Positions 15,013-34,527 of a stretch of DNA of 64,000 bases are shown here, one piece after another; the stretch's first letter is position 1, and every line of letters begins with the position of its first letter. The stretch lies in contig CBDUQR010000002.1 of NCBI GenBank assembly GCA_965369655.1, forward strand, positions 33,857 through 97,856, given 5' to 3'. The stretch comes from an uncultured bacterium. Its GTDB lineage: Bacteria; Zixibacteria; MSB-5A5; JAABVY01; JAHJOQ01. A program made the position numbers and the translations under genes. The notes below the pieces were generated by a model that worked only from the letters and a program-made list of their open reading frames with translations, had not been told where the DNA came from and did no database searches.

Positions 15013-15522
15013 GTATCTCGATATGTTCAAGCTAATCCTTTCATCAGTACAATGTTACGTCAATACTTGTATCGCACGATACCGCCGAATACTTGAATAG
15101 TCAATTAGAAAATCTTGACGATAATGTCGCGATGAGGGGTAGGTGGCTGCGACTACGTTTCTGCACTTAGTTTGAGCAGGTCACGTAACTCATTGTCCTG
15201 AAGTACGCTCATGGAAATAGTTGATCCAAGTTTTCTCTTGACACATTGCGTGTACCTGTTATATTGAGCATGTTGATTATGGTCCGCTCTCGGGGGATGG
15301 CGGATAGCGGCTGACTGACGGCCGCAGTTGTTCGTAATTACTCGCTTCGTCTGTACCCTTCGTCGAGTTGCATGTGCTTGAGGCTCGAAAGTTTTGTTCA
15401 AGAATACAATGTATGTAGGATTCCAAATTGCTGATAAGGAGGTGAAACAGCACAGGAGTTTATGTGGGGTTTGGTCTGAGGACCACACTTATTTTTTAAG
15501 ACTTGACAACAGGAGGATTTCA

Positions 15523-18500
15523 ATGAAATCTGCGAAATTCTTAGCAATCTTTGTGGTACTTGCGGTTCTCTTTGCCGTTCCTGCGTTCGCGCAGGATACT
15601 GGCGTTCTGGACACCGTCCGCTGGGTACCGGAGAGTACGACGTGGACGATCGATGCCGCAGGAGATTCGCTCTTCTCGATCGAGGTCTTTGGCTGGACGG
15701 ACCAGAGTATTACAGCTCTTTCACTCGGTTTCAAGATCCCGACGAGCTCCGGTGGCGGCACCGGTCATGATGATTCGCTGATAGTGGTTGATTCATTTAA
15801 TTTCACTATGTCGACGGGCTTTCCAGTACCATGGGCCTGGAGCGCGGTGGATTCAGCGCGCTTCGCAGATGATTTTCTACGGCACAGCTTGTACAATGGC
15901 ATCCTGCTCGGACGGATCATGCCGACCTTCCCTGCGAATACATCATCTAAGATTGGTGATCTGTTCATCAATATCCCTGATCCCACCTTGCTGCCATGTG
16001 AGTTCGACATAGCTATCGACTCGGTCTTTTTCCCGCCTGCTGGGGCTTTCAAGTTCTCTCCCTCTGGCGGCTCAGGCTACGCGCCTGAGTATGTAGGTGC
16101 GACAATTCATGTGGTGAACAATATCTGTATTCCTGATGAGGAACCGACAATTTACCTCAATCCGACAAGCTTTACATTTAACGCTGTCGAGAATGGTTCC
16201 AATCCGGTCGCGCAATCACTCAGTATCATTAATACAGGTTCTGGAACACTGAACTGGACAGCATCAGTTGATCAGACATGGTTGACTCTTGCCGCATACA
16301 GTGGTACAGGAGATGGTGCAGTAAATGTATTAGCTAATAGAGGTAGTTTGACTGCTGGCACTTACAATGGTACGGTGACAGTGTCTGATCCTGCGGCGAC
16401 GAATAATCCGCAGACAGCATCAGTGACATTTATCATTGCACCGGCTCCACCTGAGATCGTGCTCGATACGACGAGCTTTACGTTCGATGCAATTGAAGGT
16501 GGACCGAATCCGGATGATGATACTCTCTGGATCTCAAATGGCGGTGGTGGAACGCTCGACTGGTCGGTTGGCGATGATGCAACCTGGCTGACCACTACTC
16601 CCGTTGCGGGTACCGGAGACGGATACACCGTCCTGAGCGTGAATGTCTCAGGCCAGCAAGTCGGCACTCACGTTGCGACTGTTTTTGTCACCGATCCTGC
16701 CGCAAGCAATACTCCTCAGACGGTTGATGTTACACTGAATATTGTATGCGACCCATCTGAGATAGAGGTGACTCCGTTGAGTTTCACATTCGATGCTGTC
16801 GAAGGTGGACCGAATCCACCGGCACAGAATATGTTAATTGGAAGTAGTGGTTCTTGCGACGTCAATTGGACTGCAACGATTATAGCTGGATGGCTTTCAC
16901 TTTCTGAATATTCCGGAACTGCGGCGTCGAGTGTCGATATTTCTGTGGACATCTTGGGATTAGACGCCGGTACTTATGAAGATACTATCGTGATTTCACA
17001 CGATGGGATCAATGAAAGTCCCGTTAAAGTTCCAGTGACGCTGTATGTTAATTGCATTCCGGCAGAGTTGGAGACTTCACCATCGAGCTTCGCTTTTGAT
17101 GCTCAGGAGGATGGCGCAAATCCGACCCCGCAGATCCTGCACATTACAAATGGTGGGACTTGTGAACTATATTGGGGTGCAAGTAATTCTCAGCCCTGGC
17201 TCACGCTTTCTGATTACTCTGGAACTGGCCCCATTGATATCGATGTCATGGTTGATATAACCAGCATGACTGCTGGCGAGTACCACGATACGATTGTCGT
17301 ATTCGATGATGGCAGTCAAATTGACACCATACCTGTTGTGCTCACAATCGGTACAGAGCCGCTGTTGATGGTTGCGCCGAGCGAGCTCAATTTCACCGCT
17401 CCGGATGGCGGACCGAATCCTGCTTCTCAGGATGTTGATATTACATCGACCGACTCGCCTGATACGGAGCTTGAGTGGGTCGTTATTGAGCCTGGCAAGC
17501 CTATCGCCTGGTTGAGTTATGATCCGGCTTTGGGCACCACCCCTTCGGTTATGACTGTCAGTGTAAATATGGATGGGCTGTCTGCGGGTGTTTACAACGA
17601 CAGCATAATGCTTACGAAGAATGTTCCGGACAAGGACGATATCGGCGATACGGTGACTGTCTATGCTGAATTGACGGTTACTGGTGTTCCGGAAATCGAT
17701 CTGATTCCGAATTACTTCTTCTTCACCTGGGAAGAGGGTTCACCGATTGTTCCTGATGACCAGGATATGAATATCACCAACACAGGCTCCGGTACCCTGA
17801 ACTGGACTCTCTATGATACCGAGCTGATTGGCTGGCTTGATCCGTCGGCGTTTTCAGGTACCGCGCCATCGGTGGTGACACTTTCGATAGACACTGGTCC
17901 ATCACTTACAGCCGGCAACATATATGTTGACACGATTGTAGTTGAATGTGCTGATGCGATCAATCCGCTCGAGATTGCGATTGTCGAGCTTGAAGTGACC
18001 GAACCGCCGGTGCTTGACGACGACACGGTCTGGGTTGGAAATACAAGCGGACTTCCCGGCGAGCAGGTTATCGTTCCTGTGACTTTCGCCAACAGTGTAT
18101 ATCTGTCAGGCATCTCACTGCCGCTTATCTTTGACGATATGCTGGCGAAAATCGACAATGGTATTACCTGTGACTCGGTCTCGTTCATCGGGTCGAGGGT
18201 CGACTACATTGGCGCGAAGCCAGTCACGATTGACAATATCAACAAGACTGTACTGGCAGGTGTGATAGTTATTAGCGAGCCGCTAATTCCGGCAGGCAAC
18301 GGCCTGATGGCGAACCTGTATTTCTCGATCGCTCCGGGCGCCGCACCGGGAATCGTTCCGATAGACTCGACGTTTATCCTTCCTGCAAACGAACTGATGT
18401 TCGCTGACAGCCTTGGTGGCGCGATCTATCCGGAGTTCTTCTATGGAACAATTGAGATTCTCGAACCACCTTCGACGGCTTGCCTCGAGGTCAGCGATGG

Positions 18501-20562
18501 CTTCTTTGATTTCCAGGCGATTGTAAGCGGTCCGAATCCTTACGATCAGTACCTTGACATCATCAACTGTGGTGATGTGGAACTCAACTGGGATGCCTGG
18601 ACTCATGTAGGTACGTGGCTGAGCATCGATCCAACAACGGGAGTGGATGATGCAACGGTGACTCTCTCAGTCGATATTACAGGTCTTCCGGAAGGTGATT
18701 ACATCGATTCAATTACTGTTGATGCCGGTGATGCCGACAATTCACCGCAGTACGTACATGTTGACTTGCACGTTGGCCCGCCGTTGTCACAGTACATCTC
18801 AGGCGTCGTGCAGGATCCTGCCGACGTAGTGATTGACGGCGCGACTGTCGAGCTCTGGGATGTGTTCCCCACTGGTACCATCCTCGAGACGGCAACTTCA
18901 GCAGGCGATGGTTCGTTCATGTTCACTGGTTACACAGGTTATTATGTGGTCCGTGCGTACAAGAACGGTTACTATCAGAATTTCATGGATGTGACCGCGC
19001 CAGACGAGGCTGTTGTCATAGTCCTGACGCCGACTGGCACGCCAACTCCTACCAACGAGTGGGTGGATCTCTACTGTGACATGGCCATGTTCGAGGATTA
19101 TCCGATCCTCCCGGGTGATGTCGTAGAAGCTTACGATCCGGACGGTATTCTCTGCGGTCAGTATTTCGTCACCGAGATTGGCAAGTACGGCTTCATGCCG
19201 GTCTACCGCGACGACGACTTCACACCTGGTATCGACGAAGGTTGTGATCCGGGTGACGCGATCACGGTGATGCTCAACGGCTTCGATATGACTCCGTACC
19301 TCGGTGCTCCGTTATTCTGGACCCAGAATGGTGACAGGATCGAAGCATGCTTCGATGGTTACATCATCGACGAGATTTGCATGGATCTCTGCGAGGGTTG
19401 GAACCTGATCTCGTGGAATGTCGATACGGAAGTTGACGACATCGACGTCGTTATGCTTCCGATCATGGATTACATTGACGTCATGCTTGGATTCGAACAG
19501 GGTGCGTTGACGTTCGATCCCGATTATCCTGAGTTCTCTACGCTCGAGTTTGTCGACCACTACCACGGTTACTGGGTCAAGATGACTCAGGCTGCCGAGT
19601 TCTGCGTATCAGGTTTGCCGGTCGATCCATCGACGCCAATCTCTCTCGAAGAAGGCTGGAACCTTGCGTCCTATCTGCCTGATGGCGTTATGGCCACAGA
19701 GGAAGCTCTGGTTTCGATTCTTGACGTGCTGATCGTCGCTCTCGGATTCAACTGCGAAGAGGGCGGTATGGTGTACGATCCTGAGAATCCTGGCATGTCT
19801 GACCTCGAATTCCTTGGCCCAGGATTTGGATACTGGTACAAGGTCACTCAGGATGTCATGCTGACCTATCCGAGCGATGTTCCGTGGGCTGCGATGTTCT
19901 CCGGTGAGCCGGACAAGACATCGGCCAAGCTTGCCGTGCTGAAAGATGTTACTCCTACGACTCAGTGGGTGGATATCTTCGGCGGCAATGTCACGATTGA
20001 CGGTCGTGCGCTTGCAACCGGTTCGATCGTCGAGGCTGTCGATGAACACGGCGCCGTTTGTGGCGCGTTCGAGATCAAAGCCTCCGGCAGACTCGGTTTC
20101 ATGGCGGTCTATGGCGATGACATGACAACTTCAGATACGTACGAAGGTCCGACTACGGGCGGTACGTTTTACCTCGTGGTGGACGGCATCGCGACAGAGG
20201 AGACATTCGTGTGGACCGGGCACGGCGAGCGTGTCGAGATCGGCGCCCTGAGCTCTCTCGGTGGCGGCGGCGTAACGCTTCCGGATGCTTACGTACTGGA
20301 GCAGAACTATCCGAACCCGTTCAATCCGAAGACCAGCATCTCGTTCAGCGTCGGTAACGATGCTTATGTGAATCTGGTCGTATACAACCTTCTTGGCGAA
20401 GTTGTGAATGTTCTGGTCGATGAATTCAGAGCCGCCGGCGACTACACGGTCGACTGGAACGGTGACGACCTGAGCGGACGCACAGTCTCTTCCGGCGTCT
20501 ACTTCTACAAGCTGACGTCCGGCGACTATACTGAGACCAGGAAGATGATGTTGATGAAGTAA
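15523..20562 (+). CDS. Giant T9SS-sorted scaffoldin-like surface protein (1679 aa). It contains 7 BACON-type Ig repeats, a cohesin-like module, a CarboxypepD_reg-like domain, two novel ~77-aa W/CG repeats, two EGWNL repeats and a C-terminal T9SS sorting domain.
   Basis: There is an AGGAGGA RBS before ATG 15523 and a signal peptide (MKSAKFLAIFVVLAVLFAVPAFA). Seven repeats fit the BACON pattern SFTF(D/N)A.EGGPNP…LNW…WL…SGTGDG…AGTY…VTV…NPQT. The cohesin-like segment is VWVGNTSGLPGEQVIVPVTFANSVYLSGISLPLIFDD…NLYFSIAPGAAPGIVPID. The C-terminal YPNPFNPKTSISF…GVYFYKL…RKMMLMK is a T9SS C-terminal domain. Confidence 0.8.
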   Translation: MKSAKFLAIFVVLAVLFAVPAFAQDTGVLDTVRWVPESTTWTIDAAGDSLFSIEVFGWTDQSITALSLGFKIPTSSGGGTGHDDSLIVVDSFNFTMSTGFPVPWAWSAVDSARFADDFLRHSLYNGILLGRIMPTFPANTSSKIGDLFINIPDPTLLPCEFDIAIDSVFFPPAGAFKFSPSGGSGYAPEYVGATIHVVNNICIPDEEPTIYLNPTSFTFNAVENGSNPVAQSLSIINTGSGTLNWTASVDQTWLTLAAYSGTGDGAVNVLANRGSLTAGTYNGTVTVSDPAATNNPQTASVTFIIAPAPPEIVLDTTSFTFDAIEGGPNPDDDTLWISNGGGGTLDWSVGDDATWLTTTPVAGTGDGYTVLSVNVSGQQVGTHVATVFVTDPAASNTPQTVDVTLNIVCDPSEIEVTPLSFTFDAVEGGPNPPAQNMLIGSSGSCDVNWTATIIAGWLSLSEYSGTAASSVDISVDILGLDAGTYEDTIVISHDGINESPVKVPVTLYVNCIPAELETSPSSFAFDAQEDGANPTPQILHITNGGTCELYWGASNSQPWLTLSDYSGTGPIDIDVMVDITSMTAGEYHDTIVVFDDGSQIDTIPVVLTIGTEPLLMVAPSELNFTAPDGGPNPASQDVDITSTDSPDTELEWVVIEPGKPIAWLSYDPALGTTPSVMTVSVNMDGLSAGVYNDSIMLTKNVPDKDDIGDTVTVYAELTVTGVPEIDLIPNYFFFTWEEGSPIVPDDQDMNITNTGSGTLNWTLYDTELIGWLDPSAFSGTAPSVVTLSIDTGPSLTAGNIYVDTIVVECADAINPLEIAIVELEVTEPPVLDDDTVWVGNTSGLPGEQVIVPVTFANSVYLSGISLPLIFDDMLAKIDNGITCDSVSFIGSRVDYIGAKPVTIDNINKTVLAGVIVISEPLIPAGNGLMANLYFSIAPGAAPGIVPIDSTFILPANELMFADSLGGAIYPEFFYGTIEILEPPSTACLEVSDGFFDFQAIVSGPNPYDQYLDIINCGDVELNWDAWTHVGTWLSIDPTTGVDDATVTLSVDITGLPEGDYIDSITVDAGDADNSPQYVHVDLHVGPPLSQYISGVVQDPADVVIDGATVELWDVFPTGTILETATSAGDGSFMFTGYTGYYVVRAYKNGYYQNFMDVTAPDEAVVIVLTPTGTPTPTNEWVDLYCDMAMFEDYPILPGDVVEAYDPDGILCGQYFVTEIGKYGFMPVYRDDDFTPGIDEGCDPGDAITVMLNGFDMTPYLGAPLFWTQNGDRIEACFDGYIIDEICMDLCEGWNLISWNVDTEVDDIDVVMLPIMDYIDVMLGFEQGALTFDPDYPEFSTLEFVDHYHGYWVKMTQAAEFCVSGLPVDPSTPISLEEGWNLASYLPDGVMATEEALVSILDVLIVALGFNCEEGGMVYDPENPGMSDLEFLGPGFGYWYKVTQDVMLTYPSDVPWAAMFSGEPDKTSAKLAVLKDVTPTTQWVDIFGGNVTIDGRALATGSIVEAVDEHGAVCGAFEIKASGRLGFMAVYGDDMTTSDTYEGPTTGGTFYLVVDGIATEETFVWTGHGERVEIGALSSLGGGGVTLPDAYVLEQNYPNPFNPKTSISFSVGNDAYVNLVVYNLLGEVVNVLVDEFRAAGDYTVDWNGDDLSGRTVSSGVYFYKLTSGDYTETRKMMLMK

Positions 20563-20619: not shown

Positions 20620-21669
20620 TTGAAGAAATTCAAACGTAATATCGCGAGGCTGTTACCTCTCTTGTTGTTGTCAGTCCTTATGGCGTCATCCGCAAGCGCT
20701 CAGGTAATTCCGACAGACCAGTGGGTGCATTTCTGGAGCCCGAGTTCGACCTTAAATGGACAGCCGCTGCCGATTGGAGCGATTGTTGACACATATGATC
20801 CGGACGGCGTACATTGCGGTCGGTTCATCGTCCATACTACCGGTCAGTACGGTTACCTTTCAGTTTACCATGATGATAGTTACACGCCGGGTGTCGATGA
20901 GGGTGCGCTTTCCGGCGATACGATCACAATCATGGTAAATGGCGTACTGGCAGATGTTCTTGGTCCTGACGATCCCGAGTGGACGTTCAACTTCGCATTT
21001 CTGAACATCGACCTGGGCGTTCTGATCAATCTTGCGCTCGAGTTGACTACTCCACTTGACGACGTGGGAGCGCCAAACGGTTTCGTCGATTACACGTACA
21101 AGGTGAAGAATACCGGTGAGGGGATCGATTTCTTCAACCTCGAAGCTGTTTCATCCGGTGGATGGACAGTCGAAATTCTCGGCGGCGACGCCACAGGCTA
21201 CCTGAATCCGGGGGAGGAGACAGATGTAGTCGTGCGAGTCCATGTACCAGGCACTGCCCAGGATGGCGATACCGATGATCTGACTCTGACCGCCAGTTCA
21301 GCTATGGATGCCACCGTATCTGAGAGCGGTACAGTGACGACCTCGGTGATCGAAAGCGCCGCAGGGGATCCCTATGATCCTCTCATTCCGGGCGTGTTTC
21401 ATCTTCGCCAGAACTTCCCGAATCCGTTTAATCCTGTGACGACAATCGAGTTCTCGATCGAAAAGGCGATGGACGTCGAGTTGATCGTTTACAACGTTAT
21501 CGGGCAGGAGGTCAAAACGCTGGCCAACCGTCATCTGGAGATAGGCATGCATCAGTTCGAATGGGATGCCACAGATGAGAGTGGACAGAAAGTTGCAAGC
21601 GGAATCTACTTCTATCGACTTATCACTGATGAGTACGCGAGAACGCGCAAAATGATGCTGATGAAATAA
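20620..21669 (+). CDS. T9SS C-terminal-domain secreted protein (349 aa) sharing the W/CG repeat with the scaffoldin
   Basis: The start is TTG with a GGAGGTG RBS. It has a signal peptide and one copy of the W/CG domain (DQWVHFWSP…PDGVHCGRFIV…YGYLSVYHDD…TIMVNGV). Its T9SS C-terminal domain (FPNPFNPVTTIEFS…GIYFYRL…RKMMLMK) is near-identical in pattern to that of the scaffoldin. Confidence 0.75.
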   Translation: MKKFKRNIARLLPLLLLSVLMASSASAQVIPTDQWVHFWSPSSTLNGQPLPIGAIVDTYDPDGVHCGRFIVHTTGQYGYLSVYHDDSYTPGVDEGALSGDTITIMVNGVLADVLGPDDPEWTFNFAFLNIDLGVLINLALELTTPLDDVGAPNGFVDYTYKVKNTGEGIDFFNLEAVSSGGWTVEILGGDATGYLNPGEETDVVVRVHVPGTAQDGDTDDLTLTASSAMDATVSESGTVTTSVIESAAGDPYDPLIPGVFHLRQNFPNPFNPVTTIEFSIEKAMDVELIVYNVIGQEVKTLANRHLEIGMHQFEWDATDESGQKVASGIYFYRLITDEYARTRKMMLMK

Positions 21670-21692
21670 TTCACCCTGTCCTGTTGTTGAGT

Positions 21693-21727
21693 CGGAGCCC
21701 TTCCCATGAGGAGGGGCTCATTTTTTT
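21693..21727 (+). terminator. Probable Rho-independent terminator
   Basis: An imperfect GC-rich hairpin (GGAGCCCTTCCC..GGAGGGGCTC) is followed by ATTTTTTTC. Confidence 0.45.
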
Positions 21728-22131
21728 CAGGTTGTGTCTTCTCCGCAATCCGGCATCGAGATGAGCATAATTGTCGACAGAAACTTTCGGGAGTCCGCGA
21801 AAAATCTGACCGCACCCGAGCTGACAATCGGATTCAATGATCTCAAGCTCATTGGATTGGGGCGTTCATCATGTCCGAATACTATCGGAGCCTGTACAGC
21901 CTGTATGTCGTTCGGGTTCATTTCTTCCAGTTCAACACGCCAGAGCATTCGCGGCATCGAGCAGTGAACCATACGCTGTCGGATGTTTTCTTCTGCCGGC
22001 GTGTCACTGTCCGAATCGCAGACTGAGTCACTCTGGGCGAGAATGAGTCCGTGATCGGTGGAATTGGGACTCCCCCAATCGGGAGAATCACAGCAGTTGT
22101 ACTTGGCGAATATGTGTTCGTGCATGTCCAT
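21727..22131 (-). CDS. Hypothetical protein (weak call)
   Basis: It is the only ORF over 100 aa in a 690-nt gap. The product is Cys/Asp-rich with no recognisable domain and no clear RBS. Confidence 0.25.
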   Translation of the reverse strand: MDMHEHIFAKYNCCDSPDWGSPNSTDHGLILAQSDSVCDSDSDTPAEENIRQRMVHCSMPRMLWRVELEEMNPNDIQAVQAPIVFGHDERPNPMSLRSLNPIVSSGAVRFFADSRKFLSTIMLISMPDCGEDTT

Positions 22132-22355
22132 TTGTTAATTGTACGACAACTGAAGGACAATATCGGGCGGCTCTCTGTTGTCGTCAATATAGAACCGGTG
22201 TCATCAATCTCGAATCATTCAAGACGTTTTTTGGATTGACAGGGATGCCCGCAGGTCCTTTTATGGGGGTAGTTAGGCACGGGTCTGATGACGGGATGCT
22301 GTATCTCTTATTGTTGGCAATCCCGTATCAGCCGGAATACCCGAGGAGTGCATGA

Positions 22356-22760
22356 ATGGATGAAGCTGCAACGCAGCAACAGGACATGGTCGTATCGCCG
22401 TTTGCGACCGAGTTTGAGTTTGAACTTCCCAAGGGATACATCGACGACTATGGAAACGTGCATCGAGTCGGCAGAATGAGACTTGCGAACGCGAAGGACG
22501 AGATAGCGCCGCTTTCTGATCCTTTAGTGAGGGAGAACAAAGCGTATCTGGTGATATTGATTCTGTCGAGAGTGATAACGAGTCTTGGTAAAATCGAAAT
22601 CGTCACGCCTGAGACAGTCGAACGATTGTTCTCGGCTGACATTTCATACCTTCAGGACTTTTATCAGAAGATCAATACCGATGGCGATGCGGTTGTCCCG
22701 GCGAAATGTCCGTCGTGCGGGCATGCGTTTGAGGTGGAGTATAAATGCCTGGGAAAATGA
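22356..22760 (+). CDS. Phage tail assembly chaperone-like protein (gpG/gpE-type), 134 aa
   Basis: The core (GNVHRVGRMRLANAKDEIAPLSDPLVRENKAYLVILILSRVITSLGKIEIVTPETVERLFSADISYLQDFYQKIN) has the pattern of tail assembly chaperones, and the tail is a C-terminal Zn-ribbon-like CPSCGH. The ORF ends at a G GGA AAA TGA slippery site. Confidence 0.55.
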   Translation: MDEAATQQQDMVVSPFATEFEFELPKGYIDDYGNVHRVGRMRLANAKDEIAPLSDPLVRENKAYLVILILSRVITSLGKIEIVTPETVERLFSADISYLQDFYQKINTDGDAVVPAKCPSCGHAFEVEYKCLGK

Positions 22761-22924
22761 CGGGCTACCCCCGTGAAGAGATATTTCGGGAGGTGGCCTT
22801 TATCGCATATCACTTTCACTGGAGACTCGATGATATAATGGTTCTGGACCACGGGACACGGCACAGGTTCATCGAGGAGATTTCGGGAATAAACCGTCGT
22901 ATCAACGAGAACAGGTCGACATGA
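22745..22924 (+). CDS. Small ORF in the -1 frame overlapping the end of the preceding gene. It is the probable frameshift extension (GT/E'-like) of the chaperone.
   Basis: The 59 codons (MPGKMTGYPREEIFREVAFIAYHFHWRLDDIMVLDHGTRHRFIEEISGINRRINENRST) are too short for the ORF track. They lie in the -1 frame relative to 22356-22760 and begin inside the slippery heptamer region. Confidence 0.45.
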   Translation: MPGKMTGYPREEIFREVAFIAYHFHWRLDDIMVLDHGTRHRFIEEISGINRRINENRST

Positions 22925-23000
22925 AAGCAAGGATGAAACACGATATGGCTGACGGTGCGACCGCGGTCGGCCACAGAGGAGTAACAGAAAAGGAGAAGAC

Positions 23001-23852
23001 ATGTTGAAGAAGCTGGCTATTCTATTGACGATCAGTCTGCTGATCCTCGGATGTTCGCCATCGGAAGAGACCGACGCCGAAACGACGCAGTCGGATTCTT
23101 ACGTCACTATTGCGTACACGATGAAGGTGTCCGGAATACCGATGATGGCTGAGATGACGTTCAATCAGAAGTATCTTACCGATGGCGCGATTGGCAGAGT
23201 TGAAATGGAATCGATCATTCCTGTCGGAGAGGATACGAAGACCTCGAAGTTCAGCACTATCATCGACGTCGATAACCGCGTCGTGCATTATGTCAATGAC
23301 GTCTCGAAAACGTTTGCGACCGTACCTTTCCCCGACTCGCTCAGCACGCCGCCGATGACCTCACCGGAAATGACGATCAGCGTCGAGCCTAACGGGCAGG
23401 TGGATACGATTGCGGGTATCGAGTGCGACGGTATCGATCTTGCGCTGGAAATCTCATTCGTCGCTCAGGATCAACCTGTGAAATCGACCATGAGCGGGAC
23501 GCTCTGGACCAGCGAGGATTTCCCCGGCTACGCCTCATATCAGGCGTTCCAGGAGAAGACCAGGAATGCGCTTCCGTCCGGCCAGATGCAGAGCGGGGGT
23601 TTCCTTGATTTCCTGACGAGATTCGGGATGAGCCGTGAGAACCTCGATTCGTTGTATGCTGCCATGAAAGGTTTCCCGTTCTCCGGTGATCTCGTAATCA
23701 CATTGAACAAAGGTCTGCCGAATAGCTTTGACCTGAACACTAGGCTCGAAATGATCGAGACAAACACTGATGCGATCGACCGAGCGCTGTTTTCGGTACC
23801 TGAAGAATACACCGAGACAGAAGTCATGCAGATCATGATGCCGTCGAAGTAG
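23001..23852 (+). CDS. Hypothetical lipoprotein
   Basis: It has a signal peptide with a lipobox (LLILGCS) and no recognisable catalytic motifs. Confidence 0.6.
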   Translation: MLKKLAILLTISLLILGCSPSEETDAETTQSDSYVTIAYTMKVSGIPMMAEMTFNQKYLTDGAIGRVEMESIIPVGEDTKTSKFSTIIDVDNRVVHYVNDVSKTFATVPFPDSLSTPPMTSPEMTISVEPNGQVDTIAGIECDGIDLALEISFVAQDQPVKSTMSGTLWTSEDFPGYASYQAFQEKTRNALPSGQMQSGGFLDFLTRFGMSRENLDSLYAAMKGFPFSGDLVITLNKGLPNSFDLNTRLEMIETNTDAIDRALFSVPEEYTETEVMQIMMPSK

Positions 23853-27331: not shown

Positions 27332-30300
27332 TTAGCAGCAGGCAGCCGGATCGGGCGCTGGTCCTCCACCGAAGATGTAGTTGATCAGATACACTACATC
27401 ATCGATGTCGATACCGCCCAAACCGTTGGCATCACCGCAACAGATATGATCCACAGGCTCTGGTCCGCCACCGAAGATATAGTTGATCAGATACACCACA
27501 TCATCGATGTCGACACCACCAGAACCGTTAGCATCGCCCGAAACGCAATCGGACACAGGCTCACAACCCGGACAGTCAATGTTAGCACAGATCCAGGTCT
27601 TACCCTTATCGATGAGATTTTGCAGATCTGAAAGGCCTGTAAGGCTCGAGGCCTTCACCTTGCAGTATACGACGCACTCCTCTGCTGCAAGTGTGAGATC
27701 CTGAGCGATGACGTACACCGAATTGAGGTCCTCTACTGAATCCGAGGCGAGAAATCCGGTATGTGTAGCCAACAGATTGCCTATTTCGGCAGGTACATAA
27801 CCGGAGTTATCATACACCCAGGTGTCGTTTTCGAGGACGATGGCACCAACGATATCACCACAGAAGGATGCGCCGCCATAGTAGTCCTCGTAAGGCGAAC
27901 TGCCGGCGGGACCATACTGGTAGACCATCTGTCTGTCTTCATCGACTCCGGACTGGTTGTCACTGCCGTCTTCGCCGTCCGGTATATCCCAGTCGATACC
28001 TTCACCGAGATGGATGGTGATAGCGGCATCGGTGTTGTTGCAGACTTCAACGCGCTCGATCAGTACACAGACATCCGGGTGCTTCGGCACGTACCACTCA
28101 ATCACACCGGTGATGGCTGAGTCTGGAGTAGCCCACTCGCCGTGAGCGTAGTCGTAGTTGACATCATCCACAAGTATCAGCGAGTCTAAAGCGACGAAGC
28201 TGACTTTGCTGTTGGAGCCGTCGAACATCGAGAAGAATGTCTGAGAGACGTCGTCAGCATATGTCACGATGATACCCTCGTCGTACATTGGCGCGAACTC
28301 TTCGAGGAACCAGAACATATTGCCGAGATCACTGCGTTGAGCAACACCGGCTCTCGGGACGTTCCAGACGCCGATAGACCAGCAAGCGGTCGACAGAATT
28401 TCGTATTCCGGCGGGAAGTACTTACAGGCGACCAGAAGGTTGACAGGAATGTCGACTTGATCGGAACCTTCAGTACTGGTCAGACTGACACTCACGTTAC
28501 CGATTTCGGCGGTTTCGTTGGCCACCGGGCCAACGTCCACGGTGATAGTGGCTACGGTATTGATACCAGCCGTCACCGTACCGGTACCGCCGGTGATGCT
28601 CATCCAGCTTTCAGTTTCGCTTACAATGTAGCCGATCTCGACGTTACCGGTGTTGACGATAACGACATCAAACGACGTCGTAGTCGGCATCGTGCAGTCG
28701 GTACCGCTCGTGGGAGAGATTATCACAGACTGGTCCTCAGGAGCGACCGAATAGCTGAAAATGGCTTCCGGAGTGAAGCATGGGTACGTGGCGTAGAGAA
28801 CCTCGTTCTCGGTTTCTTCTCCCTCATCGTGAACGAACGAGCCAGCGTCATGGTCGCTGACGTAGAAGAGGTGCAGTACACCAGACGAGTATTTGGCCAT
28901 CGATCCGAAGTTCTCGTTGTGGCATGCACCGGCCACACAGCCGTCGGAGTATGTATTGGTCAGGTTGACATAAGTGCCGAGCTTGACCGGGACGCCGCTG
29001 CCAGCGGTCGTCAGTGTGTCGAATTCGTCCAGGGTGCCGTCGGGACCCCATGTGATGCCGCCATCGCTCGATGCAGTCAGGCAGAATTCGCCGTTTGCAT
29101 AACCATTTGCGGAGCAATCACCGTTGTTGTCACCACGGGGCCAGGTTCCAAAACGAGTAAACGAAACGTACATGTTGCCGTCGCATTCGGAGATGTTGAT
29201 TCTGGAAATGGCGCCGAGACCACCACCGATACCGCCGCTGCAGAATCCAGTCGGGGAGGTAGCGTCGAGAACGCGCGATATGACGTTGCTGGACTGATCC
29301 CAGTGCCACATATTGCCGCGGAACAGCGGCTGGCAAGGATCATCTTCTCTGAAATCAGGAGTCAGCCAAATGATGTGAAGGTCCCCGTCAGAGTCGTAGA
29401 CGGCTGATATTTCCGATTGAGCCTTGTGCACAAAATTGATGGGGTCAAGTGTTCCTCCCTCGGTGTAGTCAGTGATGTTGACTTCCGAACCCCAGGTGGC
29501 GCCGCCGTCAGTCGATTCCATGTAGACTATGTCGTGTTGTACCCACTGGAAGTTATTGAGATCGCCGGCAGGGTTGCCATCGCCATCACAACTGTTTCTC
29601 GGGTCACCCTGCTCGTAGAAAGGTTTGCACCAGATGAGGGCCACGTCGTCCGATGTCGGAGCGGGATCAGAGCGAACAGTAGCATTGACCGTATGGGAAG
29701 CATCGATGTAGAGGCCGAGCGTGTCGGTAGAGGTACCGGGGCACTCAGCGAGATCACCGTCAATATACCGATAGTAGATGATCGATTGTATCGACTCGTC
29801 AGGAAGAGCCACCGGCGGCGACTCGGTTGAGACTATGTGCAGTATCTCTTCGCCGGTTGTCAGTTTCTGGAACTCACCTACCGGCCAAATGTATGCATCA
29901 CCTTCATTTGTGCCGGACATTTCTCCCTGGCAGTTCGGTGGACCCGGCGCCCAGCGACTCACGTCAGGAAGGGCTTGAGGAAAGTAGCCGGACGGTGGCA
30001 TCATATCTATGCCCGACCTTGTGGAATAGAGCGCCGAACCCGGGCCTGCATGCCAGAATCCGACCGCAACACCGGCGTCGGTGACGTCAATAGTGGTATA
30101 TCCGCCATTGTTGGCAGATGCTGAATTCCCGGTGTGGCCCCACACCCATGCGCTGGGAGTAGTGATTTTGCGAGAGTTGTAATATATTCTCCGAAAACCG
30201 CTATGATCAGTCGGATGGCCTCTCATCCAGAGAAAGTGAACATATTCCAAACCGCTACCCTGGAAGTTCGGCGTGTAAGCGATCTGCCTCCCCATCGTGC

Positions 30301-30541
30301 CGTTTTTTTGATATTCGTAGTAGGTCACGCCGACTGTGTCGCCGATTGGATTCTGACGCGAAGCAGCGCCTGAAGGGCCGAGCCTCGGGCCGCTCGGTGT
30401 GTCATCACCGGCGATGCTCTTGTAAGGTTTCATCTTGTAGGACTGGCTGGTGGCGTCATCGACATTGGCGATGGCCGAACCCGCAAAGATCAAGAGTGTG
30501 ATCATCGCGATAGCCAGTACAAAATTCTTGCTGGAAATCAT
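27332..30541 (-). CDS. Secreted BNR-repeat (sialidase-like beta-propeller) protein with a C-terminal tandem dockerin-type repeat; paralogue A, 1069 aa
   Basis: It has a signal peptide (MISSKNFVLAIAMITLLIFAGSAIA). BNR motifs are present (STDGGATWGS, SSDGGITWGPDG). The C-terminus is GDANGSGGVDIDDVVYLINYIFGGGPEP…GDANGLGGIDIDDVVYLINYIFGGGPAP, two canonical dockerin Ca-binding segments. It is about 80% identical to 30915-34154 over the C-terminal third. Confidence 0.8.
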   Translation of the reverse strand: MISSKNFVLAIAMITLLIFAGSAIANVDDATSQSYKMKPYKSIAGDDTPSGPRLGPSGAASRQNPIGDTVGVTYYEYQKNGTMGRQIAYTPNFQGSGLEYVHFLWMRGHPTDHSGFRRIYYNSRKITTPSAWVWGHTGNSASANNGGYTTIDVTDAGVAVGFWHAGPGSALYSTRSGIDMMPPSGYFPQALPDVSRWAPGPPNCQGEMSGTNEGDAYIWPVGEFQKLTTGEEILHIVSTESPPVALPDESIQSIIYYRYIDGDLAECPGTSTDTLGLYIDASHTVNATVRSDPAPTSDDVALIWCKPFYEQGDPRNSCDGDGNPAGDLNNFQWVQHDIVYMESTDGGATWGSEVNITDYTEGGTLDPINFVHKAQSEISAVYDSDGDLHIIWLTPDFREDDPCQPLFRGNMWHWDQSSNVISRVLDATSPTGFCSGGIGGGLGAISRINISECDGNMYVSFTRFGTWPRGDNNGDCSANGYANGEFCLTASSDGGITWGPDGTLDEFDTLTTAGSGVPVKLGTYVNLTNTYSDGCVAGACHNENFGSMAKYSSGVLHLFYVSDHDAGSFVHDEGEETENEVLYATYPCFTPEAIFSYSVAPEDQSVIISPTSGTDCTMPTTTSFDVVIVNTGNVEIGYIVSETESWMSITGGTGTVTAGINTVATITVDVGPVANETAEIGNVSVSLTSTEGSDQVDIPVNLLVACKYFPPEYEILSTACWSIGVWNVPRAGVAQRSDLGNMFWFLEEFAPMYDEGIIVTYADDVSQTFFSMFDGSNSKVSFVALDSLILVDDVNYDYAHGEWATPDSAITGVIEWYVPKHPDVCVLIERVEVCNNTDAAITIHLGEGIDWDIPDGEDGSDNQSGVDEDRQMVYQYGPAGSSPYEDYYGGASFCGDIVGAIVLENDTWVYDNSGYVPAEIGNLLATHTGFLASDSVEDLNSVYVIAQDLTLAAEECVVYCKVKASSLTGLSDLQNLIDKGKTWICANIDCPGCEPVSDCVSGDANGSGGVDIDDVVYLINYIFGGGPEPVDHICCGDANGLGGIDIDDVVYLINYIFGGGPAPDPAACC

Positions 30542-33900: not shown

Positions 33901-34154
33901 CCGTTGTGCTGGAAGTCGTAGTATGTCAAACCTGCGGTATCACCGGGAGGCTGGGGGACAGGGCCGAAGCGTGACGGGCCGAAACGCGGCACGTCAGCGC
34001 CGATAAGTTCATCGGATCCGCCAGTTACAGCCTGAGGGGTCAATTGGCTCTCTGGACGGACGTTACTGATTTCACTTTCGATTGCCATCGCAGGTGCGGC
34101 AAGCATAAGCAGGATCGCCACCGCAAGGCAAAAGACTTTTGAATTTTCTGTCAT
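30915..34154 (-). CDS. Secreted BNR-repeat beta-propeller protein with a C-terminal tandem dockerin-type repeat; paralogue B, 1079 aa
   Basis: The start is set at MTENSKVF, with a GGAGAGG RBS. It has a signal peptide and BNR motifs (SNDGGVTWDA, SSDGGITWGPDA). The C-terminus is GDANGSGGVDIDDVVYLINYIFGGGPPP repeated twice. Confidence 0.8.
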   Translation of the reverse strand: MTENSKVFCLAVAILLMLAAPAMAIESEISNVRPESQLTPQAVTGGSDELIGADVPRFGPSRFGPVPQPPGDTAGLTYYDFQHNGSMGRQIAYTPDLNGHPYIHFVWMWRNAPGATRYIRYNARKLSAPQAWIHRHGDDNAGTSFSGANGGYTTIDVNSEGAAIASWHEGLAGFYFTYAGKDLMPPNTPFSKLQQPAPPNCEGEGEDGYELESEYLWPVIEYDNVDGNDVYHVISTENPGGDPIPPAATIQSFIYYRIVNDTTDECTGTSTDTLGRWMTEDQNITPVVRSDPGSDKVAIVYLKDMYPDPNHPNNDCEYTQWQHDVAYFESNDGGVTWDATPTNITNYSDGGTLAISEIKYMAYTDVTALYDHLGTLHIVWNTPVWPAAGACEGSYYTTMMWHWDDFNQEITPVYDATMPFLFRGPGGTFSNTGVWNIMTSKPNISECDERLYVSFTRFGAHPDTTMDPAMVIHDSVGGDYSDLMFLNGDIFLTGSSDGGITWGPDAAAPPYDYLTTGGTGTAVKTGTAVNVTNTRTDDCVAGDCHSEHWSSMAKYSTDVVHIAYIDDNHPGAAVVVDAEGEYTNNAYMYMTYPCFEPEGTFDYRVDPSSAFVPIAPNGVPDCTIEYTDDFTITITNAGNVPINYTFTSDQSWLNPASGSGTITAGINPTADVVMTVGPIGAEGEYPGTVTIDLTSSAGSASGIVVDVTAHVECLYYVPEYALISTHCWSVGVWNVPRAGLAQRNDEGNMWWFVEDVAPMYDEGLILTYAEDVSQTFFSMFDGSDSDASFIAMGPLTVTDHSTYEQANGLWATPDSVITGTIDWYTPKHPVYCVLIERVVVCNNSDAAITIHLGEGIDWDFPDGDDGSDNNCGVDTDRQMVYQHGPTGSSPYEDYHGGASFCVDIVGTIVLENDVWVYPNSGYIPADIGNLLATHTGFVAPNPDPAEDLNSVYVIAQNLTLDAQACTTFCKVKASSLTSLLDLQNLIDKGKEFIADTPEIDCPGCVSSGPDCVPGDANGSGGVDIDDVVYLINYIFGGGPPPVQDNCCGDANGSGGVDIDDVVYLINYIFGGGPPPVDIC

Positions 34155-34527
34155 TGTTCTACCTCTCCTCAAGGTTTCATCACTGGTGTTGCGCGTGATG
34201 TTGGTTCAAAGTAAGAGAAAGCCTCTAACATAAGTTGCTGTTTCAAATTCGTTAGAAGCTAAGTCGAAGTACCGGCATGCGTCCTCCTATTATGTTTTGT
34301 GTTCCGGGTCAATTGTAGTATTCAACAATACTATTTAAAGAAGAAGCTCTGCTCATGTTTAGATTAATAGACACGGCCATGAAAGTCAAGGCAAAAAACA
34401 CAATTGTTTGCCCAAAAAAAACGTGACGGAAGCTTTCGATGGCGTTTTGGGACTGACTTCCAGGACCGATATCTGGCCGGATGAACCGGCGCAATAATTG
34501 CGAAAGTACGCCGTGCAGAAGATATTG

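What the first reader, a model, noticed from the sequence alone, without database searches (positions are those of the whole stretch)
22356..22924. Orphan tail-assembly-chaperone-like gene pair with a canonical -1 programmed frameshift signal
ORF1 (134 aa) resembles phage tail assembly chaperones (gpG/gpE-like core plus Zn ribbon). It ends …CTG GGA AAA TGA, which places the X_XXY_YYZ slippery heptamer G_GGA_AAA immediately before its stop. A -1 slip there reads GGG AAA ATG ACG… and continues for 57 codons (MTGYPREEIFREVAFIAYHFHWRLDD…) in an ORF that overlaps by 16 nt. This is the conserved G/GT (lambda) and E/E' (P2) arrangement. No tail tube, tape-measure, sheath or baseplate gene is present within tens of kb, and both flanks are chromosomal genes, not phage genes. 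A frameshifting chaperone without a tail is unexpected. It may have been co-opted for a non-phage role, or it may mark a remnant or distant eCIS or tailocin locus.
Basis: partly seen in the sequence, partly recalled or inferred. Interest (0 to 1): 0.7.

Follow-up and report, generated by a model that had tools for sequence, protein, structure and literature searches.

The report
Frameshifting injection-system chaperone genes, stranded
These two small overlapping genes are the tail-assembly-chaperone module of a phage-tail-like injection machine; they appear to make a short and a long protein by a programmed ribosomal slip, and in this Zixibacteria-like genome they survive intact where relatives carry the rest of the machine.

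Summary
ORF1 (22356-22760) ends CTG GGA AAA TGA, so G_GGA_AAA is in phase. ORF2 (22745/22757-22924) lies in the -1 frame and is Pfam DUF6760.

The heptamer alone is not beyond chance. The case rests on 134 non-redundant related junctions.
- 129 have ORF2 in the -1 frame.
- A slippery 7-mer sits exactly 8 nt before ORF2's conserved Tyr codon, while ORF1's stop wanders.
- 78 of the 129 have no usable start codon for ORF2.
- An 11-bp hairpin with covariation follows a 6-nt spacer.
- A natural in-frame fusion, and a lineage where ORF2 has its own ATG, both lack the heptamer and the hairpin.

So DUF6760 is best read as the frameshift extension of a tail-assembly-chaperone-like protein, as in lambda G/GT. 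Elsewhere the pair sits inside extracellular contractile injection system (eCIS) loci, between tube and putative tape-measure genes.

Here no tail gene exists in 64 kb. A sister Zixibacteria clade has a full eCIS 3 kb downstream at the syntenic site. The stranded pair is under purifying selection, with synonymous sites frozen in the heptamer and hairpin.

Verdict: a new member of a known kind. This frameshift appears neither annotated nor described. Whether the genome holds an eCIS elsewhere is unresolved.

The parts
22343..22348 (+). Shine-Dalgarno-like GAGGAG, 7 nt before the ORF1 start codon
   Evidence: Read directly from the sequence.
22356..22760 (+). ORF1, 134 aa: tail-assembly-chaperone-like protein of the eCIS family (the short, 'G-like' product). 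Carries a C-terminal CPxC knuckle.
22751..22757 (+). Slippery heptamer G_GGA_AAA in ORF1 phase, immediately before the TGA stop
   Evidence: Sequence. Identical in all 14 Zixibacteria junctions whatever the stop codon. Leu/Gly/Lys codons are invariant (CTG GGA AAA) in 11 non-redundant sequences, where only 7 of 75 conserved degenerate codons are invariant. Equivalent 7-mers sit at the same position family-wide.
22758..22763 (+). Spacer between heptamer and hairpin (TGACGG). It contains the ORF1 stop codon. It shrinks to 4 nt if the window's two extra outer pairs form.
   Evidence: Alignment A2, columns 17-22; fold of the window sequence.
22762..22799 (+). Stimulatory stem-loop. The family-conserved core is 22764-22797: GCUACC/GGUGGC plus CCCG/CGGG with a bulged A.
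   Evidence: Window fold gives MFE -22 kcal/mol, z -3.09. RNAalifold finds the same helix on 119 sequences. 93.9% of cells are paired against 34-60% when the partner is slid; 51 double-change cells against 18.6 +/- 3.1; 0 of 500 shuffles reach this. Actinobacteria build an equivalent hairpin from different sequence.
22745..22924 (+). ORF2 in the -1 frame (59 aa from ATG 22745; 55 aa from ATG 22757): the DUF6760 domain. Proposed to be made mainly as the C-terminal extension of a 189-aa ORF1-ORF2 fusion.
   Evidence: Pfam PF20546 at E 2.3e-16, 60 bits against a cutoff of 27. AF2 of the fusion shows a three-helix domain (residues 140-185, pLDDT about 77-86) behind a low-confidence linker at 126-137. 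A natural in-frame fusion, P0281, exists in an eCIS locus.
23001..23852 (+). DUF4412-like lipoprotein gene that travels with the pair. It is a homologue of the 5-6 paralogues embedded in sister-clade eCIS loci.
   Evidence: Pfam DUF4412 at E 3e-6. tblastn to L088-L097 paralogues at E 1e-14 to 1e-16, and 38-60% identity to the neighbours of the other orphan pairs.
21695..21719 (+). Intrinsic-terminator-like hairpin after the upstream T9SS-substrate gene. It marks the pair as the start of its own transcription unit.
   Evidence: 10-bp stem plus T-run.

Best explanation
The pair is the tail-assembly-chaperone module of an extracellular contractile injection system (eCIS). It is read in two ways from one mRNA.

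Most ribosomes translate ORF1 and stop at TGA, giving a 134-aa chaperone. A fraction pause on G_GGA_AAA (22751-22757), with tRNA-Gly in the P site and tRNA-Lys in the A site. The pause is caused by a 10-12-bp hairpin that begins 4-6 nt downstream. These ribosomes slip back one base to GGG AAA, miss the stop and add 55 residues. The result is a 189-aa protein whose C-terminus is the three-helix DUF6760 domain.

By analogy with lambda gpG/gpGT, the short form would coat the tape-measure protein. The long form's extension would dock that complex to tube or baseplate proteins during tail assembly.

In this genome the structural genes are not at the locus. A sister Zixibacteria clade has the full eCIS 3 kb downstream of the same pair at the syntenic site. 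The pair plus one DUF4412-like lipoprotein gene is therefore the retained 5' edge of an eCIS locus whose core was deleted or moved.

Shown here: family membership, the conserved heptamer, spacer and hairpin, absence of start codons in most relatives, synteny and purifying selection. Inferred: that slippage occurs and at what rate, the roles of the two products, and whether an eCIS exists elsewhere in this genome.
For: Family and context
- ORF2 is DUF6760. ORF1 hits PHROG 508, tail assembly chaperone.
- Among the 80 genome loci plus L003-L005, nearly all non-Zixibacteria ones carry sheath and tube next to the pair; exceptions are L046, L050 and the 1.7-kb L074.
- In a Nostoc plasmid the order is sheath, sheath, tube, pair, tube, a 524-aa protein, LysM, VgrG, gp25, baseplate J.

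Frameshift
- Of 134 non-redundant junctions, 129 have ORF2 in the -1 frame.
- The 7-mer ends 8 nt before the Tyr codon of ORF2's conserved Tyr-Pro (YP) motif: GGGGGAA 56, GGGGGGG 23, GGGAAAA 14, GGAGGGG/A 19, GGGGGGA 10.
- In the 81 genome-locus junctions the preceding codon always ends in G, whatever the amino acid, and the 0-frame stop lies 0, 3 or 15-36 nt after the 7-mer.
- 55 of the 129 have no ATG/GTG/TTG at all for ORF2, and 23 more have one only more than 21 nt upstream of the YP Tyr codon.
- GGGGGAA is the slip motif of about a thousand annotated actinophage TAC frameshifts (PMC10885494).

Hairpin
- RNAalifold finds it independently.
- Pair 33-46 is GC 55 / CG 31 / UA 5: a synonymous Leu CTG/CTC change covaries with Gln CAG / Glu GAG.
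- All shuffle and slide controls are passed.
- Actinobacteria have a different-sequence hairpin at the same place.
- The window hairpin folds at -22 kcal/mol, z -3.1.

Natural controls
- The in-frame fusion P0281 in eCIS locus L151 lacks both heptamer and hairpin.
- Four low-GC loci with an ATG-initiated ORF2 in the +1 frame lack the 7-mer, and by my reading of their sequences the hairpin too.

Zixibacteria
- All 14 junctions carry G_GGA_AAA.
- 5 of the 7 fully invariant codons among 75 conserved degenerate columns lie in the heptamer or hairpin.
- L086 has a compensatory synonymous CCC>CCU / CGG>CGA change in the stem (read from the sequences).

Remnant status
- Six independent orphan loci share the window's synteny.
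- Six sister loci have Pvc16_N, sheath and tube 3 kb downstream.

Selection
- pS is 0.66-1.0 (mostly 0.75 or more, i.e. saturated) against pN 0.17-0.29 in both ORFs.
Against: - There is no direct evidence of slippage: no proteomics, ribosome profiling or reporter assay.
- In this window ORF2 has its own possible starts. ATG 22757 overlaps the stop as ATGA, and ATG 22745 has GGAG 5 nt upstream. Independent initiation cannot be excluded here, and gene callers annotate ORF2 that way.
- ORF1 matches no Pfam Phage_TAC or NCBIfam model.
- Both hairpin arms encode conserved residues (YP and REVA). Part of the pairing could therefore reflect protein constraint, and the shuffle control ignores phylogeny.
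- Whether the core eCIS was lost or lies elsewhere in the genome is untested.
Confidence: 0.72

Rival explanations
1. Two ordinary genes coupled by an ATGA overlap. ORF2 would be translated on its own from ATG 22757 (or ATG 22745) by termination-reinitiation. The heptamer would be a by-product of the Leu-Gly-Lys coding and of the need for A before TGA.
For: In the window and in all orphan-clade loci an ATG sits at the junction. Gene callers annotate 4-nt overlaps. GGAG lies 5 nt before ATG 22745. Four low-GC relatives do express DUF6760 as a separate ATG gene, so the domain can exist on its own.
Against: - 78 of 129 relatives have no usable start codon near the junction.
- RefSeq had to assign an ATA start in Nostoc.
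- The 7-mer keeps its position relative to ORF2 while the stop moves.
- The preceding codon always ends in G regardless of amino acid.
- CTG GGA AAA is frozen at three synonymous sites in a clade whose synonymous sites are otherwise saturated.
- Sister-clade member L099 has GTC instead of a start codon.
- A conserved hairpin at PRF spacing has no role in coupling.
Confidence: 0.12
2. The pair is not stranded functionally. The genome carries its eCIS structural genes at another locus, and the pair serves them in trans as a normal chaperone.
For: - The window protein keeps all 35 family-invariant ORF1 residues and the DUF6760 motifs, which suggests its ancestral partners still exist.
- Both ORFs are under strong purifying selection.
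- Already in the sister clade the pair is displaced to the 5' edge of the locus, 3 kb from the first structural gene.
Against: - No tail gene lies in 64 kb here or within 4-10 kb in five other orphan loci.
- A search with the sister-clade sheath found 8 clusters at 85-89% identity, then only two at 74-76% of unknown origin.
- That test is weak, because eCIS sheaths of other phyla are already 64-72% identical.
Confidence: 0.45
3. Co-option. The clade lost the eCIS and keeps the frameshifting chaperone, together with the DUF4412-like lipoprotein, for a tail-independent job.
For: The trio of ORF1, ORF2 and the DUF4412-like gene is kept in six distinct orphan loci. It sits in a conserved, co-oriented gene row with a roughly 220-aa protein, a PEGA protein and a PP2C phosphatase. 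Selection is purifying.
Against: There is no sign of divergence at family-invariant positions. No known tail-independent role exists for any TAC (own knowledge). Absence of an eCIS from the genome is not shown.
Confidence: 0.3
4. A decaying pseudogene remnant, or an assembly or sequencing frameshift inside one gene.
For: The structural genes are missing. One relative, L032 from a long-read MAG, shows the two parts in frame, which could be a homopolymer error.
Against: ORFs are intact at 134-138 aa (134 in all but L086) in all orphan loci, with pN far below a saturated pS. The same -1 arrangement is seen in 129 independent junctions from many assemblies and technologies.
Confidence: 0.02
5. The long product arises by transcriptional slippage on the G/A run rather than by ribosomal slippage.
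For: Many relatives carry runs of 7-8 G.
Against: The Zixibacteria site is G3A4, too short for RNA polymerase slippage as known from A/T runs of 7 or more (own knowledge). The strict codon phase of the 7-mer and the downstream hairpin at 6 nt are hallmarks of ribosomal frameshifting.
Confidence: 0.03

Closest known systems
Phage lambda gpG/gpGT tail assembly chaperones; conserved -1 frameshift of dsDNA phage tail genes (Xu, Hendrix and Duda 2004, as cited in PMC10885494; heptamer G_GGA_AAG from own knowledge)
   Same: Two overlapping ORFs with the second in the -1 frame. A slippery heptamer lies at the end of the first ORF; the window's G_GGA_AAA differs from lambda's by its last base. Short and long products share an N-terminus. 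In relatives the gene lies between the tube gene and a putative tape-measure gene.
   Different: The host system is an eCIS, not a phage. The extension is DUF6760. A conserved downstream hairpin is present here; to my recollection lambda needs none. No Pfam Phage_TAC match. In this window there is no tail at all.
Actinobacteriophage tail assembly chaperone frameshifts with the GGGGGAA ('fivetwo') motif (PRFect paper, PMC10885494)
   Same: The commonest 7-mer of this eCIS family, G_GGG_GAA, is the very motif annotated in about a thousand phage TAC genes. It has the same G:U re-pairing rationale.
   Different: Those are phage genes annotated as joined CDSs. The eCIS pair is annotated as two genes. 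The Zixibacteria clade uses G_GGA_AAA instead.
Phage Mu gp41/FS-gp41, and T4-like 'baseplate hub assembly' proteins
   Same: Structural neighbours of the ORF1 model in BFVD: E 9e-7 to 5e-5 for T4-like baseplate or hub assembly proteins, and E 0.04 for Mu FS-gp41. These belong to contractile-tail systems.
   Different: TM-scores are low (0.3-0.48) and the model is of moderate confidence. By the title of Vladimirov et al. 2022 (reference 44 of PMC10885494, paper not read), T4-like phages make their TAC products without frameshifting.
Extracellular contractile injection systems (Afp, PVC, AlgoCIS, Streptomyces CIS)
   Same: Relatives of the pair lie inside such loci, including Streptomyces ones. 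By gene order (sheath, tube, ORF1) the homologue is probably S. coelicolor sco4251, reported as a protein of unknown function found in eCIS preparations (PMC10020575). This is an inference.
   Different: The Cis1-16 nomenclature has no chaperone entry, and Cis6 is the spike plug (PMC12210884). No paper found mentions a frameshift. The window has none of the structural genes.
E. coli dnaX -1 frameshift cassette (own knowledge)
   Same: Architecture of heptamer, 6-nt spacer and stable stem-loop.
   Different: dnaX frameshifting truncates the protein, whereas here it extends it. dnaX also uses an upstream SD-like stimulator. A GGAG lies 11 nt upstream of the window's heptamer, but it is not conserved and was not tested.

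Membership tests
Phage-type tail assembly chaperone with -1 frameshift (G/GT type) | Two overlapping ORFs, the downstream one in the -1 frame and dependent on the upstream one for expression | tested here: met
   129 of 134 junctions have the -1 arrangement, and 78 of the 129 have no start codon near the junction. In the window itself an ATG exists, so dependence there is inferred from the family.
Phage-type tail assembly chaperone with -1 frameshift (G/GT type) | In-phase slippery heptamer near the end of the first ORF, conserved among relatives | tested here: met
   G_GGA_AAA at 22751-22757. Its position and phase are fixed family-wide. Synonymous sites are frozen.
Phage-type tail assembly chaperone with -1 frameshift (G/GT type) | Location between the major tail/tube gene and the tape-measure gene | tested here: not met
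   Not met in the window, which has no tube or tape-measure gene in 64 kb. Met in most relatives. The Zixibacteria sister clade already has the pair at the 5' edge of the locus.
Phage-type tail assembly chaperone with -1 frameshift (G/GT type) | Sequence or fold similarity to known TACs | tested here: inconclusive
Phage-type tail assembly chaperone with -1 frameshift (G/GT type) | Both short and fused products are made, and both are needed for tail assembly while absent from the finished tail | not testable with these tools
   Needs proteomics and genetics. The natural in-frame fusion P0281 shows that the fused form is a viable protein.
-1 programmed ribosomal frameshift cassette | Stimulatory RNA structure 5-9 nt downstream of the heptamer | tested here: met
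   An 11-bp hairpin after a 6-nt spacer. Supported by RNAalifold, covariation with controls and the window fold at z -3.09. It is absent from the in-frame fusion and, by my reading of the sequences, from the separate-gene lineage.
Pfam DUF6760 (PF20546) | Score above the gathering threshold | tested here: met
   ORF2 scores 60 bits against a cutoff of 27, E 2.3e-16.
Extracellular contractile injection system locus | Sheath, tube, baseplate/spike, Pvc16-type cap and AAA ATPase genes clustered together | tested here: not met
   None are in the window. They are present next to the pair in relatives and 3 kb downstream in the sister clade.

The most novel reading that the evidence does not exclude
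A whole Zixibacteria clade has lost its contractile injection system. It nonetheless maintains, under purifying selection, the frameshifting chaperone pair with an intact heptamer and hairpin, plus one DUF4412-like lipoprotein. That would make this a tail assembly chaperone recruited to a tail-independent function, possibly handling the lipoprotein family that is expanded inside the sister clade's eCIS loci.

Independently of that, DUF6760 would be recognised as the frameshift-encoded 'T-like' domain of eCIS chaperones across Bacteria and Archaea, a recoding event currently annotated as two genes.
Probability: 0.3. Interest if true: 0.75.

Novelty: new member of a known kind. Interest (0 to 1): 0.6.

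Why it matters
Three reasons.

1. Function for an unknown domain. The result gives DUF6760 a role and explains how it is expressed in genomes where it has no start codon. Homologues number at least 849 in the protein collection, and more than 575 species genomes carry the family. These include Streptomyces, cyanobacteria, Burkholderia/Ralstonia and haloarchaea.

2. A missing assembly factor. eCIS are being engineered as protein-delivery devices. Their length control and assembly are described as poorly understood (bioRxiv 10.64898/2026.05.27.728243). A chaperone made in two forms at a fixed ratio is a missing piece of the standard Cis1-16 parts list. It may be needed for heterologous assembly.

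3. Annotation and evolution. RefSeq splits the gene in two and has even assigned an ATA start. The stranded copy in Zixibacteria is a natural test of whether such a chaperone can have a life without a tail.

Tried and rejected
Searches that returned nothing useful
- Pfam and NCBIfam on ORF1: no family above threshold.
- PDB sequence search with the family profile: nothing.
- Rfam on 21500-23200: nothing.
- tblastn of the fusion against 50,697 phage records: no match.
- Literature searches for DUF6760, and for eCIS/CIS combined with frameshift, chaperone or tail assembly terms: nothing relevant. The Streptomyces CIS papers mention no frameshift or TAC.

Attempts to learn whether the source genome has an eCIS elsewhere
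- Sheath search: inconclusive, because eCIS sheaths of other phyla are already 64-72% identical.
- The context of the 76%-identical sheath P0129 gave no taxon.
- The listing of cluster members gave no accessions.
- Walking from window-edge genes gave only 3 kb more on one side, all polysaccharide genes, and nothing on the other.

Ideas considered and rejected
- Minus-strand ORFs 21727-22187 in the upstream spacer as real genes: not conserved in any related locus.
- Assembly error or pseudogene.
- Transcriptional slippage: the run is too short here, and the codon phase is strict.

Ideas left open
- An upstream SD-like stimulator, GGAG 11 nt before the heptamer: not conserved, so left as a remark.
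- A Zn site shared between ORF1's CPxC and ORF2's HFHW: not supported. The AF2 linker is disordered, and the natural fusion P0281 lacks CPxC.
Full report
**1. What is in the sequence**

ORF1 runs from 22356 to 22760 on the + strand and encodes 134 aa. It is preceded by GAGGAG 7 nt upstream. It ends CTG GGA AAA TGA, so G_GGA_AAA (22751-22757) is in X_XXY_YYZ phase directly before the stop.

The -1 frame is open from ATG 22745 to the stop at 22922-22924. A second ATG at 22757 overlaps the stop as ATGA. A -1 slip would yield a 189-aa protein, ...CLGK-MTGYPREE....

Taken alone the heptamer is unremarkable: GGGAAAA occurs 7 times in the window against 6.3 expected. The case has to be made comparatively.

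**2. What the two ORFs are**

ORF2 is a clear Pfam DUF6760 (60 bits against a cutoff of 27).

ORF1 has no Pfam or NCBIfam family. The evidence that it is a tail assembly chaperone (TAC) is as follows:
- It matches PHROG 508, 'tail assembly chaperone', at E 2.4e-5.
- It has 849 homologues, which NCBI calls 'phage tail assembly protein'. They come from Zixibacteria, Myxococcota, Chloroflexota, Acidobacteriota, Actinomycetota, cyanobacteria and archaea.
- Foldseek against PDB gives 2ob9 the highest probability, but it is not significant.
- BFVD returns T4-like baseplate-hub assembly proteins (E down to 9e-7) and Mu FS-gp41.

TAC-likeness is therefore supported by several weak, concordant lines and by gene order. 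No curated TAC model supports it.

The 'Zn ribbon' reduces to one invariant CPxC knuckle.

**3. Home of the family**

Among the 80 genome loci plus L003-L005, nearly all non-Zixibacteria ones carry sheath and tube genes beside the pair. The exceptions are L046, L050 and the 1.7-kb L074.

In a Nostoc plasmid annotated by RefSeq the order is: DUF4255 cap, sheath, sheath, tube, 'phage tail assembly protein', 'DUF6760 family protein', tube, a 524-aa protein, LysM, VgrG/Pvc8, gp25, baseplate J. This is an extracellular contractile injection system (eCIS). The pair sits where phages keep G/GT, between tube and putative tape measure.

Streptomyces CIS loci are members. By gene order the ORF1 homologue is probably sco4251. 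That protein is reported as of unknown function and was detected in eCIS preparations (PMC10020575). This assignment is an inference.

**4. Is the frameshift real?**

All junctions were anchored on the Tyr codon of ORF2's conserved Tyr-Pro (YP) motif.

- Across 134 non-redundant junctions, 129 have ORF2 in the -1 frame.
- A 7-mer ends exactly 8 nt before that Tyr codon: GGGGGAA 56, GGGGGGG 23, GGGAAAA 14 (all Zixibacteria), GGAGGGG/A 19, GGGGGGA 10.
- In the 81 genome-locus junctions, the codon before the 7-mer is CTG, TTG, CCG, CAG, GTG, ACG, TCG, ATG, AAG, TGG or GGG. It always ends in G whatever it encodes. ORF1's stop lies 0, 3 or 15-36 nt after the 7-mer.
- The conserved feature is thus the 7-mer and its phase, not the stop or an overlap.
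- 55 of the 129 have no ATG, GTG or TTG anywhere in the open -1 frame ahead of the conserved domain. Another 23 have one only more than 21 nt upstream of the YP Tyr codon, inside ORF1.
- RefSeq had to give the Nostoc DUF6760 gene an ATA start.
- GGGGGAA is not canonical X_XXY_YYZ. It is, however, the 'fivetwo' motif found in about a thousand annotated actinophage TAC frameshifts, rationalised by G:U re-pairing of tRNA-Glu (PMC10885494).

**5. Stimulator**

After a 6-nt spacer comes a hairpin. In most lineages it is GCUACC-C-CCUGG ... CCAGG-A-GGUAGC.

- RNAalifold predicts it without guidance on 119 gap-free sequences.
- On my explicit 11-pair structure, 93.9% of cells pair, against 34-60% when the 3' partner is slid by 1-3 columns.
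- 51 cells carry changes on both sides, against 18.6 +/- 3.1 in shuffles. The covariation score is 0.173 against 0.121. None of 500 shuffles reaches these values.
- The most telling pair (columns 33-46) is GC in 55 sequences, CG in 31 and UA in 5. A synonymous Leu CTG/CTC change on the 5' arm goes with Gln CAG / Glu GAG on the 3' arm.
- Actinobacteria replace YP by YA, and build a 10-12-bp hairpin of different sequence (ACGUACGCGGCC/GGUCGCGUACGU) at the same distance, with their own compensatory changes.
- The window's version is GCUACC/GGUGGC plus CCCG/CGGG, with two extra outer pairs. It folds at -22 kcal/mol, z -3.09.

One caveat applies. Both arms encode conserved residues, and the shuffle control ignores relatedness. 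The slide control and the natural controls below address this only in part.

**6. Natural controls**

- P0281 is a 159-aa protein in which the ORF1 core and DUF6760 are fused in one frame. It lies in a bona fide eCIS locus with sheath, three tube genes, Pvc16_N, an AAA ATPase and eCIS_core. Its junction has neither a G-run 7-mer nor complementary arms.
- Four low-GC loci (L135-137, L141) have DUF6760 as a separate gene with its own ATG in the +1 frame. They lack the 7-mer and, by my reading of their sequences, the hairpin too.

Heptamer and hairpin therefore appear only where a -1 shift is needed. This is what a recoding signal predicts, and what protein-coding constraint does not. The fusion is also shown to be a viable protein. 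The AF2 model of the window's 189-aa product shows a three-helix DUF6760 domain (pLDDT about 77-86) behind a low-confidence linker.

**7. The Zixibacteria copies**

The window is attributed to Zixibacteria by its closest relatives and shared synteny with Zixibacteria MAGs. Fourteen distinct Zixibacteria junctions all read CT/TTG GGA AAA, whether the stop is TGA, TAG or TAA. One of them (L099) has GTC where the others have a start codon.

Among 75 alignment columns with an invariant, degenerate amino acid in 11 non-redundant sequences, only 7 have an invariant codon. Five of those are CTG, GGA and AAA of the heptamer and TAC and GAG of the stem. CCC, CGG and GTA of the stem are 9-10 of 11. L086 carries a doubly synonymous compensatory change, CCC>CCU with CGG>CGA, that keeps a stem pair (read from the sequences).

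**8. The orphan question**

The window contains no sheath, tube, cap, LysM or spike homologue. Pfam on 41 further ORFs shows only chromosomal genes:
- AcrB, a PAS/CHASE histidine kinase, PdxS/PdxT and PTS EIIA;
- two T9SS substrates, DUF4412, PEGA and PP2C;
- LigA, the Tol-Pal genes and Lgt;
- polysaccharide synthesis genes.

The same arrangement recurs in five further distinct loci: L001/L002, L006, L086/87/93, L092 and L094. The order is a giant BACON/T9SS protein, a 349-aa T9SS protein, the pair, DUF4412, a roughly 230-aa protein, PEGA and PP2C.

A sister clade comprises L088-L091, L095 and L097, whose members are named Zixibacteria by NCBI. It shares the 134-aa length, the LGK end, the heptamer and, where upstream sequence is available (L088, L091), the BACON gene. 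In it the pair is followed by 2-3 DUF4412-like genes, then Pvc16_N, sheath, tube, 2-3 further DUF4412-like genes, sheath, tube and a large protein.

The window's arrangement is therefore most simply the 5' edge of such a locus after deletion or relocation of the core.

It is not decaying. All ORFs are intact. pS is 0.66-1.0 (mostly 0.75 or more, i.e. saturated), against pN of 0.17-0.29 for both ORFs. All 35 family-invariant ORF1 residues are retained.

I could not determine whether the source genome has an eCIS elsewhere. Retention of every invariant residue argues that the ancestral partners still exist. The absence of any tail gene around six orphan loci argues the other way. I put the two possibilities at roughly equal odds.

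**9. Mechanism proposed**

A terminator-like hairpin follows the upstream gene (21695-21719), so transcription probably starts in the 690-nt spacer. The spacer's minus-strand ORFs are not conserved.

Ribosomes initiate at ATG 22356. At G_GGA_AAA the downstream hairpin would resist unwinding. A minority of ribosomes would re-pair tRNA-Gly and tRNA-Lys on GGG AAA, read ATG ACG GGC TAC..., and terminate at 22922-22924.

The products would be a 134-aa chaperone and a 189-aa chaperone-DUF6760 fusion at a fixed ratio. Their roles (tape-measure coating, and docking to tube or baseplate) are inferred from lambda G/GT by analogy only.

In this window ORF2 could additionally be initiated at ATG 22757. 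That cannot be excluded.

**10. Novelty**

-1 frameshifting in tail assembly chaperones is textbook for phages, so this is a new member of a known kind. Three things seem new:
- the eCIS pair 'phage tail assembly protein' plus DUF6760 is one recoded gene, with a conserved heptamer-spacer-hairpin cassette spanning Bacteria and Archaea;
- DUF6760 thereby acquires a role;
- a Zixibacteria clade keeps the recoded gene without adjacent tail genes.

Public annotation treats the pair as two genes. I found no paper describing the frameshift in the held library. That is absence of evidence in one library only.

Noticed in passing
window 23001-23852; L088-L091, L095, L097 (e.g. L091 10604-13385 and 16062-17937): DUF4412-like lipoprotein genes (lipobox LILGC in the window copy) are expanded to 5-6 paralogues inside the Zixibacteria eCIS loci, both before the cap gene and between tube and second sheath. 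Exactly one homologue stays beside every orphan pair. Sec/lipoprotein signals are unexpected for eCIS cargo, and their role is unknown.
   Followed up: partly
L150 6360-6530 (Nostoc sp. UHCC 0926 plasmid pn3, NZ_CP117771.1): RefSeq annotates the DUF6760 gene with an ATA start codon directly after CTG GGG GAA GTA TAG. This looks like an annotation artefact of the unrecognised frameshift. All 46 plasmid records with the pair list two CDSs or none.
   Followed up: partly
L151 6001-6480 (protein P0281): A natural in-frame fusion of the chaperone core and DUF6760 (159 aa, no CPxC knuckle) inside an eCIS locus. It has neither a slippery 7-mer nor a hairpin.
   Followed up: yes
L135, L136, L137, L141 (low-GC marine metagenome contigs): DUF6760 is a separate gene with its own ATG in the +1 frame relative to ORF1. 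The lineage has no heptamer and, by reading the sequences, no hairpin, so it seems to have abandoned frameshifting. L143 seems instead to use a T-rich site (GGA TTT TTT A).
   Followed up: partly
proteins P0241, P0244, P0249: Proteins of 210-252 aa made of two tandem copies of the ORF1 chaperone domain.
   Followed up: no
L032 717-791 (long-read MAG contig): ORF1 and DUF6760 are in the same frame through a run of six G. This is either a real fusion or a homopolymer error.
   Followed up: no
window 15394-20562 and 20620-21669: A 1722-aa BACON_2 protein and a 349-aa protein are both T9SS-sorted (Por_Secre_tail). By eye they share a repeated module of about 100 aa (…GQYGY…VY.DD.YTPG.DEG…GD.IT…NG…). 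The pair of genes is syntenic with the chaperone pair in both Zixibacteria clades.
   Followed up: no
window 27332-30541 (-) and 30915-34172 (-): Two paralogous-looking proteins of about 1070-1085 aa. Neither has a Pfam domain apart from C-terminal dockerin-like repeats (DANGSGGVDIDDVVYLINYIFGGGP).
   Followed up: no
window 21670-22355: A 686-nt spacer upstream of ORF1 follows a strong terminator-like hairpin (21695-21719). Its minus-strand ORFs (134 and 89 aa) have no homologue in any related locus, and the spacer has no nucleotide match elsewhere.
   Followed up: partly
window 22730-22741: GAGGTGGAG (codons of the conserved F-E-V-E/D motif) places a Shine-Dalgarno-like GGAG 11 nt upstream of the heptamer. 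This is the spacing at which an internal SD stimulates -1 frameshifting in dnaX (own knowledge). The spacing is not conserved across the family.
   Followed up: no
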